From assembly GCA_051952715.1 (NCBI GenBank), contig JBQCJM010000228.1:1-49029 (forward strand): a DNA stretch of 49,029 nt, written 5' to 3'. Origin of the DNA: Flavisolibacter sp. (GTDB lineage Bacteria > Bacteroidota > Bacteroidia > Chitinophagales > Chitinophagaceae). The position numbers and the translations under genes were made by a program. Shown here in pieces: positions 41,880-49,029 of the stretch (the stretch's first letter is position 1; each line of letters starts with the position of its first letter). The notes under the pieces were generated by a model. That model saw nothing but the letters and a program-made list of their open reading frames with translations. It made no database searches and was not told the origin of the DNA.

Positions 41880-42116
41880 ATGCACAATTACTCACCAGAG
41901 GACCTGCTTCTTTATTTGTATAAAGAAACAAGTCCGGAAGCCACTGCCGCTATTGAAGACGCTCTGAAAAATGATTGGTCTTTAAGAGAAAAATTAGCTG
42001 TATTGCAAACATCCATGAAACGCCTTGATTCCATCAAAGTTTCCCCGCGAACAGAAGTTATCCTGAACGTTTTAAAGTATGCCCAAAAAGAAGAAAAGTT
42101 TGTGAAGGCCAAATAA
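41880..42116 (+). CDS. Small conserved hypothetical protein, anti-sigma N-domain-like
   Basis: EDLLLYLYKE.S......IE.AL..D..LR pattern, resembling zinc-less anti-sigma domains. Confidence 0.6.
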   Translation: MHNYSPEDLLLYLYKETSPEATAAIEDALKNDWSLREKLAVLQTSMKRLDSIKVSPRTEVILNVLKYAQKEEKFVKAK

Positions 42117-42949: not shown

Positions 42950-42964
42950 TGGCGCAGAGCTTGT
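42950..42964 (+). promoter_or_regulatory. Sigma54-like (-24/-12) promoter for the GAF protein gene
   Basis: TGGCGCAGAGCTTGT, 60 nt upstream of ATG 43025. Confidence 0.55.
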
Positions 42965-43024
42965 TTTATATAGCGGCAGGAAATTAGTATTCATACCATT
43001 TGCCACTAAACCGCATCTAATTCA

Positions 43025-45403
43025 ATGACAACCGTTTCAAACTTATATGATGGTTTTAACAGCCTACTATCGCTACAGCCTTTGGTAATGGTATTAAAAA
43101 AAATGATTGCGGAAGGCAGAACCGGCGCTAAACGCTTGTATCAGGGGTTGATAAATGAAATAGAAGCTAATCCTGAATTGATGCAGCCAATGGAGAGTGC
43201 CACCACATTGCTAAAACATGAATTACTGGTTGAAACTTTATTTTCCACTATTTTTCCTCCGTCCACGGGCACTAACCAAGGCATTAATGCTATTGCTTTT
43301 CCTTTCACTGCCGAAACAGTATATGCTTCACCGCTTTTTAGAGAACTATTTTTAAAAGAAGGCAACGTTATCAACATTCCGGATTATAAAACAAATATTG
43401 GTATCGCAAAAGCAAATCTGTCGCTGGCATACAATCTTATTCTTCAAAAATTTTATTCGCTTTCGGTGCCTGCTACCGCCACATCGGTGCATGCTTTTGC
43501 CGATGCAGAAAATGGACTCACAAAATATTATGAGTTGAAGCTGAATACGCAATTTGTAGAAGTAAAATGCATTAATAAAGATTTTGCTTTGCCCACCAGT
43601 TTTTCTCCACATAGAGCCATAGAAATGGAAGAGTTGAAAGAGCTGTTTCCGTTAGATAATTTCCAGTTCGAGGGTTTGGTGGTCATTGATGTGGCCGATG
43701 TTACAGAAGAACAGGTAATCAATGAAATTAAAAACGCTTTAATCAACATCAACGCTTTTACCGATGTAGAAGTGTATAATGAATTGCAACAGCATGTACA
43801 AAGTTTGATTGGCTTAAAAAGAGTACGCATAGGCATTACGCCTTTTTTTAAAAAGAATGATTATTACCTGTATACTGAGGCGCATTACAAGAACAGCATT
43901 TTGTTTGCCAACGAAGAAGTTATTAATAACAAGGATAAAATCAGCGAACAATGCCGCGATGTATTTCGTCACTCCAGCCAGCCCATTCTTTACGAGATAT
44001 TAAATGAAAGCAGCAGCCGTTTCAATGAATTGCTGCGATACTACTACGACCAGGGAATTAAAAGCCTGATACTTTGCCCGCTGAAAAGAGAAGACGGAGA
44101 GTTGATTGGTTTATTGGAAATAGCCTGCGAAATTAAAGGAAGGTTGCAGTTCAGCCACCTGGCAAAAATTCAGCCGGTGATACAATTGTTTGCCCTGGCG
44201 CTGGAAAAAACCAATGAAAGCCTTGAAATGCAAATTGATAAAACCATTAAGGATCATTTCACTGCCATCCAACCCGCTGTAGAATGGAAATTTACAGAAG
44301 CGGCATTTCATTATTTACAGCATCAGCAAATAAATGAACTGACAAGAATGCCTGCTATTTCCTTCGAAGATGTTTATCCTTTGTACGGTTCTATCGATGT
44401 AAGAAATTCTTCTACTGAAAGAAGCGCTTCTATTCAACAGGATATGCTGGAGCAACTGGAAATGGCTAAAGCAGTGCTGGCCAAAGCCGATAAAATAATG
44501 GAGTTTCCATTGTTGAAGGAAATACAATTTCGCATAGATAAATATATCGCTTCTGTATCTGAGGCGCTTATATCTGATGATGAAATGCTGATCTATGATT
44601 TTTTGCAAAACGATCTTGATGCATTGTTTAAAAACTTGCGTAGTACAAAACCTGAATTAAAAAAAACCATCAGCAATTATTTTGCGGCCCTCGATCCTCA
44701 ACGAAAAGTTGTTTACAACAAACGAAAGGCTTACGAGGAAAGCATTACCCGCATTAATGATGTGCTGGATCGTTTTATGGACAGCGAGCAGCAGGCAGCG
44801 CAGGAAGTATATCCGCATTATTTTGAACGCTATGTTACAGACGGTATAGAGTTCAATATTTATGTAGGACAGTCCATTTCACCACATACGCCTTTTAATG
44901 AGATGTATGTAAGTAATTTAAAATTGTGGCAGCTTTCGCTATTGGCCAAGGCGGCACGGCTAACCAATTCTTTAGAAAAACGCCTGAGCCTTCCTTTAAA
45001 AACTACACAATTAATATTGGCGCATTCCATTCCTTTAACCATTAGCTTTAGAAGGAAGGAACGAAAGTTTGATGTGGACGGTGCGTATAATATTCGCTAC
45101 GAAATTGTAAAAAAACGTATTGACAAAGTGCACCTTAAAGACAGCGAGGAACGATTGACGCAGCCAGGAAAAATAGGTATTGTTTATTCGCAGCAAAAAG
45201 AATTTGCAGAATATTTGGAATATATAGAGTTTTTGCAAAAAGAAGGTTTGCTGGCAGATAACGTTGAACATTTAGAGTTGGAAGACACGCAAGGCATTAG
45301 CGGGCTAAAAGCTATACGGGTAGAAGTGAACTATGATATGGAAACATCTGAAGCATCTAAAAAGGAAGATGTCAACACAGAGAAAGAAGTGATGAGGAAA
45401 TGA
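43025..45403 (+). CDS. GAF domain-containing protein with a putative diverged class III cyclase-like C-terminal domain
   Basis: GAF motif GIKSLILCPL....ELIGLLEI; C-terminal motifs are described under findings. Confidence 0.75.
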   Translation: MTTVSNLYDGFNSLLSLQPLVMVLKKMIAEGRTGAKRLYQGLINEIEANPELMQPMESATTLLKHELLVETLFSTIFPPSTGTNQGINAIAFPFTAETVYASPLFRELFLKEGNVINIPDYKTNIGIAKANLSLAYNLILQKFYSLSVPATATSVHAFADAENGLTKYYELKLNTQFVEVKCINKDFALPTSFSPHRAIEMEELKELFPLDNFQFEGLVVIDVADVTEEQVINEIKNALININAFTDVEVYNELQQHVQSLIGLKRVRIGITPFFKKNDYYLYTEAHYKNSILFANEEVINNKDKISEQCRDVFRHSSQPILYEILNESSSRFNELLRYYYDQGIKSLILCPLKREDGELIGLLEIACEIKGRLQFSHLAKIQPVIQLFALALEKTNESLEMQIDKTIKDHFTAIQPAVEWKFTEAAFHYLQHQQINELTRMPAISFEDVYPLYGSIDVRNSSTERSASIQQDMLEQLEMAKAVLAKADKIMEFPLLKEIQFRIDKYIASVSEALISDDEMLIYDFLQNDLDALFKNLRSTKPELKKTISNYFAALDPQRKVVYNKRKAYEESITRINDVLDRFMDSEQQAAQEVYPHYFERYVTDGIEFNIYVGQSISPHTPFNEMYVSNLKLWQLSLLAKAARLTNSLEKRLSLPLKTTQLILAHSIPLTISFRRKERKFDVDGAYNIRYEIVKKRIDKVHLKDSEERLTQPGKIGIVYSQQKEFAEYLEYIEFLQKEGLLADNVEHLELEDTQGISGLKAIRVEVNYDMETSEASKKEDVNTEKEVMRK

Positions 45404-45454: not shown

Positions 45455-48043
45455 TCAAAAGCTCAATCCTATTGAAACATAAGGTTGAGTGCCTTCTACA
45501 GATCTTGCAACGGCAGCTTGTATCAATATTAAATCAGCCGGTATAATAAAAATGCCACCACCATAACCATGATGCCATGTTGTAGAAGACTCATGCGGTA
45601 CCCAAACTCGCCCAACGTCGTTAAAACCAATAACACCTACTGTTCCCGGAAAAAGATAAGAAGTAAAGTCAAACAATTTGGCCCTCAGTTCTATTGAGTG
45701 ATAAAACATGCTTTTACCTGTAAAACGGCTGTTGTAGAATCCTCTCAAATTTTGTAATCCGCCTAATTGCAATTGCTGAAAAAATGCAGGATGGCCAATG
45801 CTTGTGCCACCACCAACGCGGTTGGCAATAACAATATTGCTATCGCTAAAAAAAGGCAGGTAAAAAACCAGGTCTGTTTTTACCTGGCTATAAGACTTAC
45901 TTTCATCGCCTATCTGCCACATACCCGTAAACAACGTGTTCCAGTAAACACCTTTTGCCGGTAACATGGTTTCGTCTTTTGTGTTTAATTCCATGCCTGC
46001 CACGAAACCAGAATATAATTTGCTGCCGAAAACTTTTTCATTGGGATGCACCATATCATATTGCCCCAAAAAAAGGTTTCTGTTTTTAGATGAAGGACTG
46101 CTATAATATTGCAAACCTGCGCCAGCATTAATTCGAAAGTGATTGCCAAGGTTTCTGTACAAACGTACATCGCCGGTGAGATGATTATAAAAGTTTTGAT
46201 AATAGTCAATTTGATGACCATCGCTTTTAGCAAATGGTGATTCGTTCCCTACTCCAAAAAAATTGTCAATATTATTAGGCCCTTTTGCTACAAAATTTAC
46301 AACAAGGTCGTTCTTCTTCGTTCTTTTTTTCAAATCAAGCGTGTAGGTAAATAAAAAAGAGTTGTTTAAGCTGCCATAAGTAACATCGAATAAATGTTGC
46401 TTTCCATAAGGTTCCTTACGGAACGACTGTGTTTCGTATACAAAGCCCAAGTGCAGCAGTGCACCTTTGTCTTTGTTATAAAAAACGGAGACCACCGGCT
46501 TAATTTTTTCATATTTAAAGTTGTGCCAGTTGTATTCATTAACAGTGCTGTCTGTTGACAGTCGCATTTTGGCTGTGTGCTTTGGCGGGAAAATATTTTT
46601 TTCATCGCTTCTGTCGTAAATAAAAATTTTGCTCCTGTTATGTAGTTGCGGATCAATGTAAAAGCTGTCTATATCATCACCACCAATCAAATGTAATTTT
46701 ATGGATGAAGGATGATTTCCCTCCAAAGAAAATACATCACTGTTGCCCAAACCAAATAATCTTACTTCTTTAGTAATTGCAGGATCAAAATTGCGATGAT
46801 AAATTATTTGCTCTGGCTTGCCTTCTTTATTGATCTTTCGAACGGTAAGATCAATATGCTCATCCTCTAAGTATTTAGCTTCAAACAGTTCATGTTTGTC
46901 GGTGCCCGCTACGTCAACATATTTTGCAAGATATTTATAGTAGTCTAAGCCTATTTTCTGTAAATTATTTCTTCTTGCCAATAATATCTGATAGATCTTT
47001 TCTGCAGAAAGCTTATAAATATTCGTTGGCATCAAAAGCAAAGCTTTGGCAATAAGGCTATCGGTAAGTTTGCTTTGTACAAAAGCAATTTGTTCTTTCC
47101 AATCATTTTCGTCAAGCCCTGTTAAAAAATAGCGGTCAAAAAAACGGTTATTGTAGTTATAACCATTAATGTTTCTTATGGTTCCTTTGAACGGTTGCAG
47201 GTTGGCCTTCCCCGATTGATGTGAAAGAATGGACGGAAACAAACCTGAAGTAGTATAATATGCTTTGTCCCTGTCTCTGGGAAAAGGCGTGTAAACAGTT
47301 TGTCCATTCACTTTATTTTCTTCCCAGCGCCATTGATCCTCGTGCCGGTCCCAGTCGCCCATAAAATGATCCAACAACCTGGCTCTTAACAGCAATGTAT
47401 CATTGATGCGTACATCATTATCACTTCTAAGTTTGGCTTGTGTTTTTTCTGTATTGTCTGTGTCGATAGAATCATTAGGTTGCCTTTCTTCAAACAACAA
47501 AACCGAATTGCCAAACTCCTGTCGGTATTCGCCCAGGGCCGGGTCGTCGGGAACATAGACAATTTGAGGATGTGTATGCGGAATGCCTAAAGCTTCGGCA
47601 AGCGGGGGCACGGTTAAAGCAGCATAAGGATGGCTTGTTACTACCTGGTCCTGCAAAATATCTTTTGCAATGGTAGCTCTCAACTTTGGGGGCAAGGCAC
47701 GTGCAGGATATTTTTGTACGCTTCGCAAAACCCATTCTTTTCCGGTAGCATCCTGCAGGCGCAAAGATTTTGTTTGCAGCCCGCCACCTTTTTGCAAAAC
47801 AGTTAAGCCACCTTTTTCTTTATTTAAATAAAAAGTTTTCAGCTTTACTGGCGCGGCCCAAAGCTTGCGATAGCTTTCTCCAAACAAAAAACGATGAATG
47901 CCCGAAACCGCATTGTACTCCGGTGCAATGGCTACAGTAACACTGTCGGAATTTTTTTGGGCCAAACCATTTTTTGCAAAAAATAACTGAATGCACAAAG
48001 TGTATAGCAACACAATCTGTATGAACATCCATTTACTTTGCAT
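45455..48043 (-). CDS. Omp85 (BamA/TamA-family) beta-barrel with an N-terminal kinase-like domain
   Basis: Signal peptide; GDWDRHEDQW; C-terminal LGG..NLRGF..RF.G, DVGRVW, GYGGG, terminal Phe. Confidence 0.8.
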   Translation of the reverse strand: MQSKWMFIQIVLLYTLCIQLFFAKNGLAQKNSDSVTVAIAPEYNAVSGIHRFLFGESYRKLWAAPVKLKTFYLNKEKGGLTVLQKGGGLQTKSLRLQDATGKEWVLRSVQKYPARALPPKLRATIAKDILQDQVVTSHPYAALTVPPLAEALGIPHTHPQIVYVPDDPALGEYRQEFGNSVLLFEERQPNDSIDTDNTEKTQAKLRSDNDVRINDTLLLRARLLDHFMGDWDRHEDQWRWEENKVNGQTVYTPFPRDRDKAYYTTSGLFPSILSHQSGKANLQPFKGTIRNINGYNYNNRFFDRYFLTGLDENDWKEQIAFVQSKLTDSLIAKALLLMPTNIYKLSAEKIYQILLARRNNLQKIGLDYYKYLAKYVDVAGTDKHELFEAKYLEDEHIDLTVRKINKEGKPEQIIYHRNFDPAITKEVRLFGLGNSDVFSLEGNHPSSIKLHLIGGDDIDSFYIDPQLHNRSKIFIYDRSDEKNIFPPKHTAKMRLSTDSTVNEYNWHNFKYEKIKPVVSVFYNKDKGALLHLGFVYETQSFRKEPYGKQHLFDVTYGSLNNSFLFTYTLDLKKRTKKNDLVVNFVAKGPNNIDNFFGVGNESPFAKSDGHQIDYYQNFYNHLTGDVRLYRNLGNHFRINAGAGLQYYSSPSSKNRNLFLGQYDMVHPNEKVFGSKLYSGFVAGMELNTKDETMLPAKGVYWNTLFTGMWQIGDESKSYSQVKTDLVFYLPFFSDSNIVIANRVGGGTSIGHPAFFQQLQLGGLQNLRGFYNSRFTGKSMFYHSIELRAKLFDFTSYLFPGTVGVIGFNDVGRVWVPHESSTTWHHGYGGGIFIIPADLILIQAAVARSVEGTQPYVSIGLSF

Positions 48044-48164: not shown

Positions 48165-49029
48165 TTAAAACTGGAAACCAAATGTCACATAAGGTAAAAG
48201 CTTTTCTTCGTTTGAATGGGCAATAGAAGCTGTAACTACAAAGCGTTGAATAGGCGAGATCCAAATGCCGCCGCCATAACCGTCGTGCCATTTGTTTGAA
48301 CTTTCACCATCTGTCCAAACTCTTCCTATATCGTTAAAAAGAAGTATGCCGTACGAGCCGGGGAAAAGATATGTATTGAATTTTCCAAGGTTCAGGCGAA
48401 GCTCTGTATTGTTAAAAGCCATGCTTCTTCCGGCAAAACGGTTTCTTCTAAAACCACGCAGGTTTTCGGTACCACTCAAATAATTGGCTTGCTGAAATTC
48501 AAATTTTCCAAAGTTGCGATAGTAGCCAAAGCGGGTAGCAAACACATATGCTGATTGCGGAACAAATGAAGCAAACACGCTCATATCCCAGTGAAACTGC
48601 GTTAACGTATGGCTTTGATCATTTAATCCGAACAATTGGCGTACACCTGCATCCAAGACAAAACCACGTGTAGGAATTACCTGGTTATTTTTTGAATTGA
48701 TATCCAGTAAAGCTTCGGCACCTAAATAAGTTTTTGGCAGGTATAAAGTGGCGGGATCGAGGCCATTGACATTTGTGTTGTTTATAAACTTTCCGCTATT
48801 CTCTGCCTGCGGCAATTTAAAATGCTGGAAAATAGGGCCACCATAAATGCGTAACCACGATTGCAATTGCCTACGCACCAATGCTGATAAAGTAGTGATG
48901 TTGTAACGGGTTCTGAAATATACCACTTCGTCTGTATTCAAAACTGTATTATTGCCCAGCCCAAAAAAGTTGGTGACATTAATGGGTGCCCGCACATCGG
49001 CACGAAGTAAAAGATCGCTGCTGCCAAAA
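48165..49029 (-). CDS. Omp85-family barrel, C-terminal part of a paralog of 45455-48043 (5' end outside the window)
   Basis: Frame open to the edge; NFFGLGN, NLRGFRRNRFAG, NDIGRVW, WHDGYGGG, terminal GFQF. Confidence 0.8.
   Translation of the reverse strand, partial: FGSSDLLLRADVRAPINVTNFFGLGNNTVLNTDEVVYFRTRYNITTLSALVRRQLQSWLRIYGGPIFQHFKLPQAENSGKFINNTNVNGLDPATLYLPKTYLGAEALLDINSKNNQVIPTRGFVLDAGVRQLFGLNDQSHTLTQFHWDMSVFASFVPQSAYVFATRFGYYRNFGKFEFQQANYLSGTENLRGFRRNRFAGRSMAFNNTELRLNLGKFNTYLFPGSYGILLFNDIGRVWTDGESSNKWHDGYGGGIWISPIQRFVVTASIAHSNEEKLLPYVTFGFQF

What the first reader, a model, noticed from the sequence alone, without database searches (positions are those of the whole stretch)
42950..45403. 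GAF protein with a cryptic, highly diverged class III nucleotide-cyclase-like domain
Seen, in order after the GAF domain: YGSIDVRNSS (D458), ERYVTDGIEF (D606), TTQLILAHSIPLTISF, RKFDVDGAYN (D683) and ERLTQPGKIGIVYS (P714). Known: class III cyclases show F.DI.GFT, K.IGD.Y, RIGIH.GPV, YDVWGDTVN and R.ES...PG.I.VS in that order. Inference: this is a cyclase or palm-fold nucleotidyltransferase that keeps both metal-binding Asp residues. It has roughly 100 extra helical residues between them and altered specificity residues, so the product may be non-canonical. With the GAF sensor and sigma54-like promoter, this is a candidate undescribed second-messenger system.
Basis: partly seen in the sequence, partly recalled or inferred. 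Interest (0 to 1): 0.75.

Follow-up and report, generated by a model that had tools for sequence, protein, structure and literature searches.

The report
Hidden nucleotide cyclase in Bacteroidota protein
A common Bacteroidota protein labelled only 'GAF domain-containing' is predicted to hide an adenylyl-cyclase-type enzyme domain, and its gene often sits beside a membrane effector gene in a slot that an ordinary cyclase fills in other lineages, so it likely makes a cyclic-nucleotide signal in a pathway that our literature searches did not find described.

Summary
Confirmed. The ORF at 43025-45403 (792 aa) has all five motifs. It has no Pfam, NCBIfam or PADLOC hit. AlphaFold (pLDDT 95) with two structure searches gives a class III cyclase fold (Z 12.3; the top 16 rows are cyclases) behind a GAF domain. 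D458 and D606 are invariant (150/150) and lie 148 residues apart versus 44 in canonical cyclases. A homodimer model scores 0.66 versus 0.00 for controls, with cyclase-like head-to-tail contacts. By my inferred register the transition-state Arg and an adenine-type Lys/Arg+Asp pair are kept, while the catalytic Asn and two phosphate-binding basic residues are lost. The family is in 47 of 301 Bacteroidota genomes; 31 of 47 have an HD-PycTM gene within 15 kb, usually with a phosphoesterase-Omp85 gene. In this genome the cluster continues on another contig. In 13 of 13 genomes of a lineage lacking this gene, a canonical cyclase sits tail-to-tail with HD-PycTM. Best reading: an active, probably cAMP-making, housekeeping cyclase feeding HD-PycTM; activity, product and input are untested. 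The sigma54-like site is genus-limited. This scan noted the same family and operon before on other DNA (e1-5133565, e1-5208328).

The parts
42950..42964 (+). sigma54 (-24/-12)-like motif TGGCGC-N5-TTGT, genus-limited
   Evidence: same motif upstream of 5 of 7 close relatives at variable spacing, partial in the other 2, 1 of 39 other loci; background 0.024 per 250 bp; RpoN present in the genome. The pattern was written after seeing the window motif.
43025..45403 (+). 792-aa soluble GAF + class III cyclase-like protein
   Evidence: no transmembrane segment by hydropathy
43025..43696 (+). N-terminal alpha/beta domain (residues 1-224), unassigned; possibly a second PAS/GAF-like sensor
   Evidence: well folded in the model; full-length Foldseek hits are PAS-GAF-PHY modules; barely tested by VIA; poorly conserved
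43697..44224 (+). GAF domain (residues ~225-400)
44225..44359 (+). helical dimerisation linker (residues 401-445) with T-A-I-x-P motif (T413, W421, F423 invariant; P417 in 124 of 150), like the cyclase helical domain
   Evidence: (T413-T413 and 404-431 cross contacts); analogy to PMC5699072 is inference
44360..45334 (+). class III cyclase-fold catalytic domain (residues 446-770)
44396..44398 (+). D458, first predicted metal ligand (end of beta1)
   Evidence: 150 of 150; secondary structure
44432..44743 (+). ~104-residue helical bundle inserted between alpha1 and alpha2 (approximate limits 470-573); conserved D519/E520 and R567 touch the partner subunit
44828..44842 (+). R602 (predicted base-selecting Lys position, K/R in 135 of 150) to D606 (second predicted metal ligand, beta2-beta3 turn, 150 of 150)
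45071..45127 (+). D683 (predicted base-selecting Asp), G686, I694 (in place of the transition-state Asn), K696, K697, R698 (predicted transition-state Arg), K701
   Evidence: register inferred
45455..48043 (-). 862-aa Omp85-barrel protein with a kinase-like DWDRH middle domain; member of the conserved cluster family
48165..49029 (-). 3' end of a calcineurin-like phosphoesterase/kinase-like/Omp85 gene; its 5' part, the SdiA-regulated gene and the HD-PycTM gene lie at the end of contig C291 (17786-22735)
   Evidence: C291 matches residues 1-909 and the window end residues 914-1201 of the same reference protein; no exact overlap; same gene order in complete genome G063

Best explanation
The protein is predicted to be a GAF-regulated, homodimeric class III nucleotidyl cyclase that likely makes a 3',5'-cyclic nucleotide, most likely cAMP, for the membrane protein HD-PycTM, whose gene lies within 15 kb in 31 of 47 genomes. 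Shown: the conserved residues, the insert length and the gene linkage. Predicted by modelling: the fold and the head-to-tail dimer. Inferred steps: (1) a cytoplasmic small molecule binds the N-terminal and GAF domains and the 376-435 helices set the dimer; (2) D458 and D606 hold two Mg/Mn ions, the partner subunit gives K/R602 and D683 for the base and R698 for the transition state, and invariant K696, K701, R466 and R710 would replace the lost phosphate-binding residues; (3) the inserted helical bundle acts as a built-in regulator across the dimer; (4) the cyclic nucleotide opens the 3-TM PycTM part and the fused HD domain degrades it, giving a reversible housekeeping switch tied to the envelope phosphoesterase-kinase-Omp85 and SdiA-regulated proteins, probably in phosphate or envelope physiology rather than cell suicide.
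For: Fold: pLDDT 95.4; Foldseek's 2 hits at E<=0.001 are cyclases; VIA ranks 1-16 are all titled cyclases, best Z 12.3, rmsd 3.3, 185 of 201 residues. Dimer: score 0.66, best control 0.00, runs agree in >=95% of contacts, pLDDT 86; the mark was reached by 20 of 30 solved homodimers and 1 of 23 monomers; alpha1 (S463, R466) touches the partner's I694 and Q756-G757, and 602-605 and 675-687 are in the interface. Selection on the active site: 24 of 52 positions in 671-722 are >=90% conserved versus 3 of 170 in the GAF; 128 of 150 keep D458, D606, R698, K/R602 and D683 together. Asn loss is tolerated in an active cyclase, Rv1900c (PMC4886424). Linkage: HD-PycTM within 2.5 kb in 24 of 47 genomes and within 15 kb in 31 of 47, over 5 families; the Omp85 family in 29 of 44 loci, with gene order changing between lineages. 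Displacement: family f21 has 0 of 63 genomes with this gene, and 13 of its 13 genomes with HD-PycTM have a canonical PF00211 cyclase tail-to-tail within 500 bp; the same cyclase type lies within 5 kb of HD-PycTM in 5 more genomes of 4 other families. The same HD family is fused to canonical cyclases in 9 of 31 cyclase loci and sits between a cyclase and a cNMP-binding gene in this genome; its metal-binding H28, H32, H64, D65, H75 and D123 are 24 of 24.
Against: No activity data. Residue equivalences rest on topology and dimer contacts: hhalign against two cyclase sets was not significant (probability <1%), and one alignment offered another register placing the non-conserved Q616 at the second Asp; the model's strand order argues against that register. 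Three catalytic positions are lost (Asn 0 of 150, Lys 1 of 150, beta4 Arg 0 of 150). The canonical cyclases that share the slot have Gln and Val/Ala/Ile, not Lys and Asp, at the base-selecting positions (17 of 17), which sits badly with a common cAMP signal. 16 of 47 genomes show no linkage within 15 kb (10 on different contigs, this genome among them; 6 at 45 kb or more). HD-PycTM-like hits also occur in 94 of 254 genomes without this gene, many of them partial. G043, G059, G215 and G257 carry both cyclase types, so replacement is not strict. The 13 f21 genomes are two genera, i.e. about one event. The dimer pass may reflect likeness to solved cyclase dimers. ppk1 is near only 2 of 40 loci, so the phosphate link is weak.
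Confidence: 0.5

Rival explanations
1. It is an active nucleotidyl-transfer enzyme, but its product is not cAMP: a cyclic pyrimidine or cGMP, as in PycTM-linked systems, or a linear or polyphosphate-linked nucleotide made with the unusually basic alpha4 helix.
For: All characterised PycTM partners seen in the papers read make cCMP, cUMP or cGMP. The slot-sharing canonical cyclases lack the Lys/Asp pair. Family-specific invariant K696, K701, R710 and acidic 609 (150 of 150 D/E) have no canonical counterpart; position D+3 lines the base pocket in AnPycC (F109 vs D106). Uridylate and cytidylate cyclases score within about 1-2 Z of the best hit.
Against: K/R at D-4 and Asp at G-3 match the adenylyl pattern seen in 20 of 20 canonical Bacteroidota cyclases and the K497/D566 pair cited. 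No PADLOC PycC model hits any of 5 family members scanned. No GGDEF entry is among the 50 VIA rows shown (inconclusive).
Confidence: 0.22
2. It is a catalytically dead cyclase fold that binds ATP, PPi or another phosphate ligand and signals by conformational change through the inserted helical bundle.
For: Three catalytic positions are lost family-wide. A 'class III adenylyl cyclase-like ATP-binding protein' exists in the PDB (6yii, title only). The insert reaches across the dimer.
Against: Both metal aspartates and the transition-state Arg are invariant in 150 of 150, and the catalytic segment is the best-conserved part. There is no output domain and no longer fused form was found (weak evidence). 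An intact cyclase occupies the same gene slot elsewhere.
Confidence: 0.13
3. It is the cyclase of a Pycsar-like anti-phage system, with HD-PycTM as an abortive-infection effector.
For: The partner's C-terminal domain is PycTM (Pfam E 6.5e-36, PADLOC E 3.5e-16). Defence cyclases are fast-evolving and divergent, and clades outside defence islands exist.
Against: Single copy in 46 of 47 genomes and present in 21 of 22 genomes of family f5. Neighbours are housekeeping genes (enolase, endonuclease III, respiratory genes) with no recurring defence family seen among clusters in 3 or more loci. The tree mostly follows host families. The genes are often convergent rather than co-transcribed. No homologue in viral contigs.
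Confidence: 0.1
4. The gene linkage is inherited synteny with no functional meaning, and the cyclase serves other receptors such as Crp-like proteins.
For: Most tight links are in one family (19 of the 24 within 2.5 kb are f5). Two plasmid copies, one in Fusobacteriota, lack the cluster.
Against: Linkage survives rearrangement in 5 families; all 47 genomes hold a PycTM-family hit versus 94 of 254 others (kin are not independent); an unrelated cyclase is linked to the same gene.
Confidence: 0.05

Closest known systems
Class III adenylyl/guanylyl cyclases (Synechocystis Cya2 2w01, P. aeruginosa CyaB 3r5g, Spirulina CyaC 1wc1, mycobacterial Rv1900c and Cya)
   Same: Predicted fold over ~180-185 residues (Z 11-12), strand order, two aspartates, helical linker with proline, head-to-tail dimer, sensor-helix-cyclase layout.
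   Different: About 10% identity and no PF00211 hit; ~104-residue helical insert between the aspartates; TDG instead of xGD; Asn, beta4 Arg and C-terminal hairpin Lys lost; a basic KKRxDK helix added.
Pycsar and Pucsar (PycC/PucC cyclase plus PycTM 3-TM effector)
   Same: A class III-fold protein is linked to a PF18967 PycTM domain; PycC structures are among the fold hits.
   Different: No PycC model hit; GAF sensor; effector fused to an intact HD domain; core-genome, near-vertical distribution; linked to Omp85 and SdiA genes.
DUF2652 cyclase-like proteins (PMC4886424)
   Same: Cryptic class III relatives in Bacteroidetes with Ile in place of the transition-state Asn.
   Different: Single-domain ~250-aa proteins; this family gave no Pfam hit in that region.
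Omp85 'Metallo' subfamily (PMC4104836)
   Same: The neighbouring PF00149+Omp85 protein matches this described subfamily.
   Different: In the passages seen it is treated as a metalloprotease, with no mention of a kinase-like domain, cyclase or HD-PycTM neighbour; here its best PDB sequence hits for that domain are purple acid phosphatases.

Membership tests
Class III nucleotidyl cyclase | [quoted passage not shown] | tested here: met
   (predicted model)
Class III nucleotidyl cyclase | Two metal-binding Asp at the end of beta1 and in the beta2-beta3 turn | tested here: met
   D458 and D606 150 of 150 at those elements; distance not measurable, coordinates not returned
Class III nucleotidyl cyclase | Head-to-tail dimer with shared active sites | tested here: met
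   0.66 vs 0.00; a model, and it may echo solved cyclase dimers
Class III nucleotidyl cyclase | Transition-state Arg | tested here: met
   R698 150 of 150; register inferred from motif and from I694 contacting partner alpha1
Class III nucleotidyl cyclase | Transition-state Asn (usual but dispensable in some members) | tested here: not met
   I/V at 694, 0 of 150 Asn; absent in active Rv1900c
Class III nucleotidyl cyclase | Phosphate-binding beta4 Arg and C-terminal hairpin Lys (positions recalled) | tested here: not met
   L663 and Q756; possible substitutes R466, K696, K697, K701
Class III nucleotidyl cyclase | Sequence match to PF00211 | tested here: not met
   hhalign not significant
Class III nucleotidyl cyclase | NTP to 3',5'-cNMP activity | not testable with these tools
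   needs an assay
Adenylyl-specific subtype | Lys four before the second Asp and Asp three before the conserved Gly | tested here: inconclusive
   K/R602 135 of 150 and D683 141 of 150, both in the dimer interface, but a 4-residue longer alpha4 makes the register uncertain
Pycsar | PycC-family cyclase | tested here: not met
   no PADLOC hit for 5 of 5 members scanned
Pycsar | Linked PycTM or PycTIR effector | tested here: met
   31 of 47 within 15 kb
Pycsar | Anti-phage activity through cCMP/cUMP | not testable with these tools
   distribution argues against it
GGDEF or Cas10-type palm synthases | Best structural match and GGDEF/GGDD motif | tested here: inconclusive
   the motif is absent (TDG); Cmr2 scores Z 7.6 versus 12.3 for cyclases; GGDEF not among the rows shown

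The most novel reading that the evidence does not exclude
Free-living Bacteroidota carry a core-genome, non-immune counterpart of Pycsar: an unrecognised cyclase subfamily with a rebuilt active site makes a non-canonical nucleotide that reversibly gates a PycTM channel carrying its own phosphodiesterase, coupled to an outer-membrane phosphatase-kinase-Omp85 enzyme. It would be the physiological system from which, or into which, the anti-phage PycTM effector was recruited.
Probability: 0.22. Interest if true: 0.85.

Novelty: new variant of a known kind. Interest (0 to 1): 0.64.

Why it matters
Thousands of proteins (5792 clusters at 90% identity among the candidates scored; 1156 at 50%) are annotated only as GAF or hypothetical proteins. 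If active, they add a missed cyclase to nearly every member of some large Bacteroidota families, including genomes where the PF00211 search found none (G022). It would also explain the orphan 'Pycsar system effector family protein' annotated in these genomes, give a testable non-immune role for PycTM, and show that a class III active site can work with a 100-residue insert and without three usual catalytic residues.

Tried and rejected
Pfam, NCBIfam, PADLOC and PDB sequence searches of the protein found nothing for the C-terminal half. Profile-profile alignment to canonical and cluster-type cyclases was not significant; the alternative register GIEFNIYVGQS = GEIYQYVGDE was rejected because the model has a loop, not a strand, after G615 and Q616 is not conserved. 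PF27174 ('YeeD', on 23-33% of Atlas cluster members) could not be examined, as it is not in the local Pfam, and is left as a lead. No fused form of 1387-3960 aa was found (weak). No viral homologue; the viral fold search gave nothing at E<=0.001. DNA-polymerase palms match only weakly. The sigma70 and terminator scan was at chance level. Sigma54 control as a family trait was rejected. 'Usually includes ppk1' was not reproduced: 2 of 40 GAF-cyclase loci (about +/-8.5 kb) and 4 of 20 HD-PycTM loci; in this genome ppk1 is on another contig. The kinase-like reading of the Omp85 protein's middle domain rests on the DWDRH motif (24 of 27; motif meaning recalled) and low Atlas scores to CotH/HipA (0.78): a lead only. 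Eight literature searches listed no paper on this family or cluster. The N-terminal 224 residues were not folded alone.
Full report
Observation. The ORF runs 43025-45403 on the + strand and encodes 792 aa. The nearest named relatives are Flavisolibacter proteins. The protein has no Pfam, NCBIfam or PADLOC hit and no PDB sequence hit of note. Public names for relatives are 'GAF domain-containing protein' or 'hypothetical protein'.

Family. 47 of 301 Bacteroidota genomes have a full-length match, 46 of them one copy; 21 of 22 genomes of family f5 have it and several large families have none. There are 1156 representatives at 50% identity, and the 150 listed are mostly 760-830 aa. One plasmid copy is from Fusobacteriota; none was found in viral contigs. 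A midpoint-rooted FastTree of 41 loci mostly follows host families: f7, f25 and f29 are monophyletic, f1 and f6 intermix, and f5 contains f7 and one f12 row.

Fold. An alignment of 150 homologues (26 from genome loci including the query, 124 of the 150 listed representatives; fragments and a few others left out) gave models with pLDDT 95.4 for residues 400-780 and 93.8 for the whole chain. Foldseek's two hits at E<=0.001 are cyclases. VIA-align against 48,161 chains ranks 16 titled cyclases first, best Cya2 Z 12.3, rmsd 3.3, 185 aligned; the first clearly unrelated rows are helical bundles matching only the insert. The GAF spans about 225-401. Residues 1-224 are folded but unassigned. The order of elements is that of class III cyclases: helical linker, beta1 ending at D458, helices, beta2-turn-beta3 with D606 in the turn, alpha3, beta4, a hairpin, alpha4, beta5 and a final hairpin. 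The aspartates are 148 residues apart versus 44, so about 104 residues, all helical, are inserted between alpha1 and alpha2.

Active site. Mammalian cyclase residue roles are recalled, and the equivalences are inferred, because hhalign was not significant and coordinates are not returned. Kept: D458 and D606 (150 of 150), S/T463 (148), K/R602 (135), D683 (141), R698 (150). Lost: the Asn (I694; 0 of 150), the hairpin Lys (Q756; 1 of 150) and the beta4 Arg (L663; 0 of 150). Added: K696, K701, R710 and D/E609 (150 each), K697 (148), R466 (149). Position D-4 selects the base in PucC (E118 vs D122) and a Lys/Asp pair selects adenine in an engineered cyclase; 20 of 20 canonical Bacteroidota cyclases here have that pair. 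A two-copy model of 398-772 with ATP and Mg scored 0.66 versus 0.00 for the best of three controls, with >=95% contact agreement and pLDDT 86 (calibration: 20 of 30 solved homodimers and 1 of 23 monomers reach the mark). S463 and R466 contact the partner's I694 and Q756-G757, which supports the register; the insert's 514-521 and R567 also cross the interface. The pass may echo solved cyclase dimers, and ligand contacts were not reported. The T-A-I-x-P417 linker resembles the cyclase helical domain, whose hinge proline is needed for activity in Cya; that match is my inference.

Neighbourhood. In 44 loci (40 from G handles, about +/-8.5 kb, taken from 40 of the 48 matches; the window; 3 close relatives) the Omp85 family occurs in 29, HD-PycTM in 24 and SdiA-regulated proteins in 13; the next most common cluster is a generic ABC ATPase in 11. 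By coordinates, HD-PycTM lies within 2.5 kb in 24 of 47 genomes and within 15 kb in 31 of 47, over five families; 10 are on different contigs and 6 are 45 kb or more away. All 47 have a hit to the HD-PycTM query, 45 with both parts in one frame, versus 94 of 254 other genomes, many partial. In this genome contig C291 ends with HD-PycTM, an SdiA-regulated gene and the 5' part of the phosphoesterase-Omp85 gene, whose 3' part is at the window's end (residues 1-909 and 914-1201 of one reference; no exact overlap). The complete same-genus genome G063 has the same order, so the window's gene very likely belongs to the cluster.

Two independent pointers to a cyclic-nucleotide role. First, family f21 lacks this gene in 63 of 63 genomes searched, and the 13 with HD-PycTM all have a PF00211 cyclase with intact D, D, N, R motifs tail-to-tail within 500 bp, the geometry common in f5. 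The same cyclase type is within 5 kb of HD-PycTM in G097, G215, G257, G043 and G059; four of these also carry the GAF protein. The 13 are two genera and count as about one event, and these cyclases lack the Lys/Asp pair. Second, the HD domain keeps its metal ligands, its family is fused to canonical cyclases in 9 of 31 cyclase loci, and in this genome a stand-alone copy lies between a cyclase and a cNMP-binding gene. A phosphodiesterase role is inferred from this.

Mechanism. Ligand at the GAF or N-terminal domain sets the dimer through the helical linker; the shared sites turn an NTP, most likely ATP, into a cyclic nucleotide; HD-PycTM receives and destroys it. PycTM has three hydrophobic segments and is described as pore-forming in Pycsar; a related idea, nucleotide-gated channels among immune TM effectors, was shown for Cap14 and only proposed for others. 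A fused degrading domain, core-genome presence and housekeeping neighbours favour a reversible physiological switch over abortive infection. The phosphate link is modest: a purple-acid-phosphatase-like domain, a phytase-like SdiA propeller, ppk1 in 2 of 40 and 4 of 20 loci and SixA-like genes.

Promoter. The sigma54-like motif at 42950-42964 recurs in 5 of 7 close relatives and 1 of 39 other loci, with 0.024 expected per 250 bp; RpoN is present. It is likely real in this genus but is not a family trait.

Literature. Eight searches listed nothing on this family; the library lacks most subscription papers. Seen: PMC4886424, part 1 of 6; PMC11224242, PMC12419801, PMC4104836, PMC13069673 and 10.1101/2023.07.24.550367, passages; 10.64898/2026.08.12.744502, passages and sections 5 and 7, supplements not seen, and its Table S1 could list this family; PMC5699072, abstract and passages. 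The original Pycsar paper was not read. This scan reported the same family (e1-5133565) and operon (e1-5208328) in other genomes; these are unchecked AI notes, found after I had the neighbourhood, and are not counted as support.

Verdict. A real, widespread, highly diverged class III cyclase-fold subfamily with a credible effector; a new variant of a known kind, enzyme activity untested. Interest 0.64.

Noticed in passing
window 45455-48043 (-) and 48165-49029 (-); L051:4853-8455: Omp85-barrel proteins carry a large middle domain with a Gly-rich GGGxQT loop and a DWDRH motif (24 of 27), suggesting a HipA/CotH/PI3K-like kinase next to a purple-acid-phosphatase-like domain; this genome has at least three paralogues (C228, C291, C325).
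   Followed up: partly
G000:C365:6135-12193 (L078, L161): A TPR-cyclase gene, a stand-alone HD gene, a 918-aa membrane HEAT-repeat gene and a cNMP-binding gene form an apparent complete cAMP module.
   Followed up: partly
L113:3572-4636, L117:6452-7588, L129-L158: A membrane class III cyclase subfamily (FMFLDLxSST ... YQYVGDE ... HGDVxNT) with Gln and Val at the base-selecting positions, in 55 of 301 genomes; its product is not predictable from the usual rules.
   Followed up: partly
L120-L122 (family f28): Stand-alone ~190-aa PycTM genes without HD occur in most of the 38 of 49 genomes of this family with a hit; one (L121) follows Omp85 genes and a canonical cyclase-TPR gene.
   Followed up: no
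L159:8887-11208: A homologue on a Haliovirga abyssi (Fusobacteriota) plasmid keeps DIRGSS, TDG and LQGISG; my pattern for the FDVDG segment did not match it, and it lacks the cluster.
   Followed up: partly
L076: A long-branch copy in G227 sits inside a split phosphoesterase / Omp85 gene pair.
   Followed up: no
window 41880-42115 (+): A short ORF (under the 80-aa listing limit) between divIC and endonuclease III reads like an anti-sigma-type peptide after an ECF-like gene end; read by eye only.
   Followed up: no
family-wide: Pfam 38.1 family PF27174 'YeeD' is precomputed on a minority of homologues; the matched region is unknown.
   Followed up: partly
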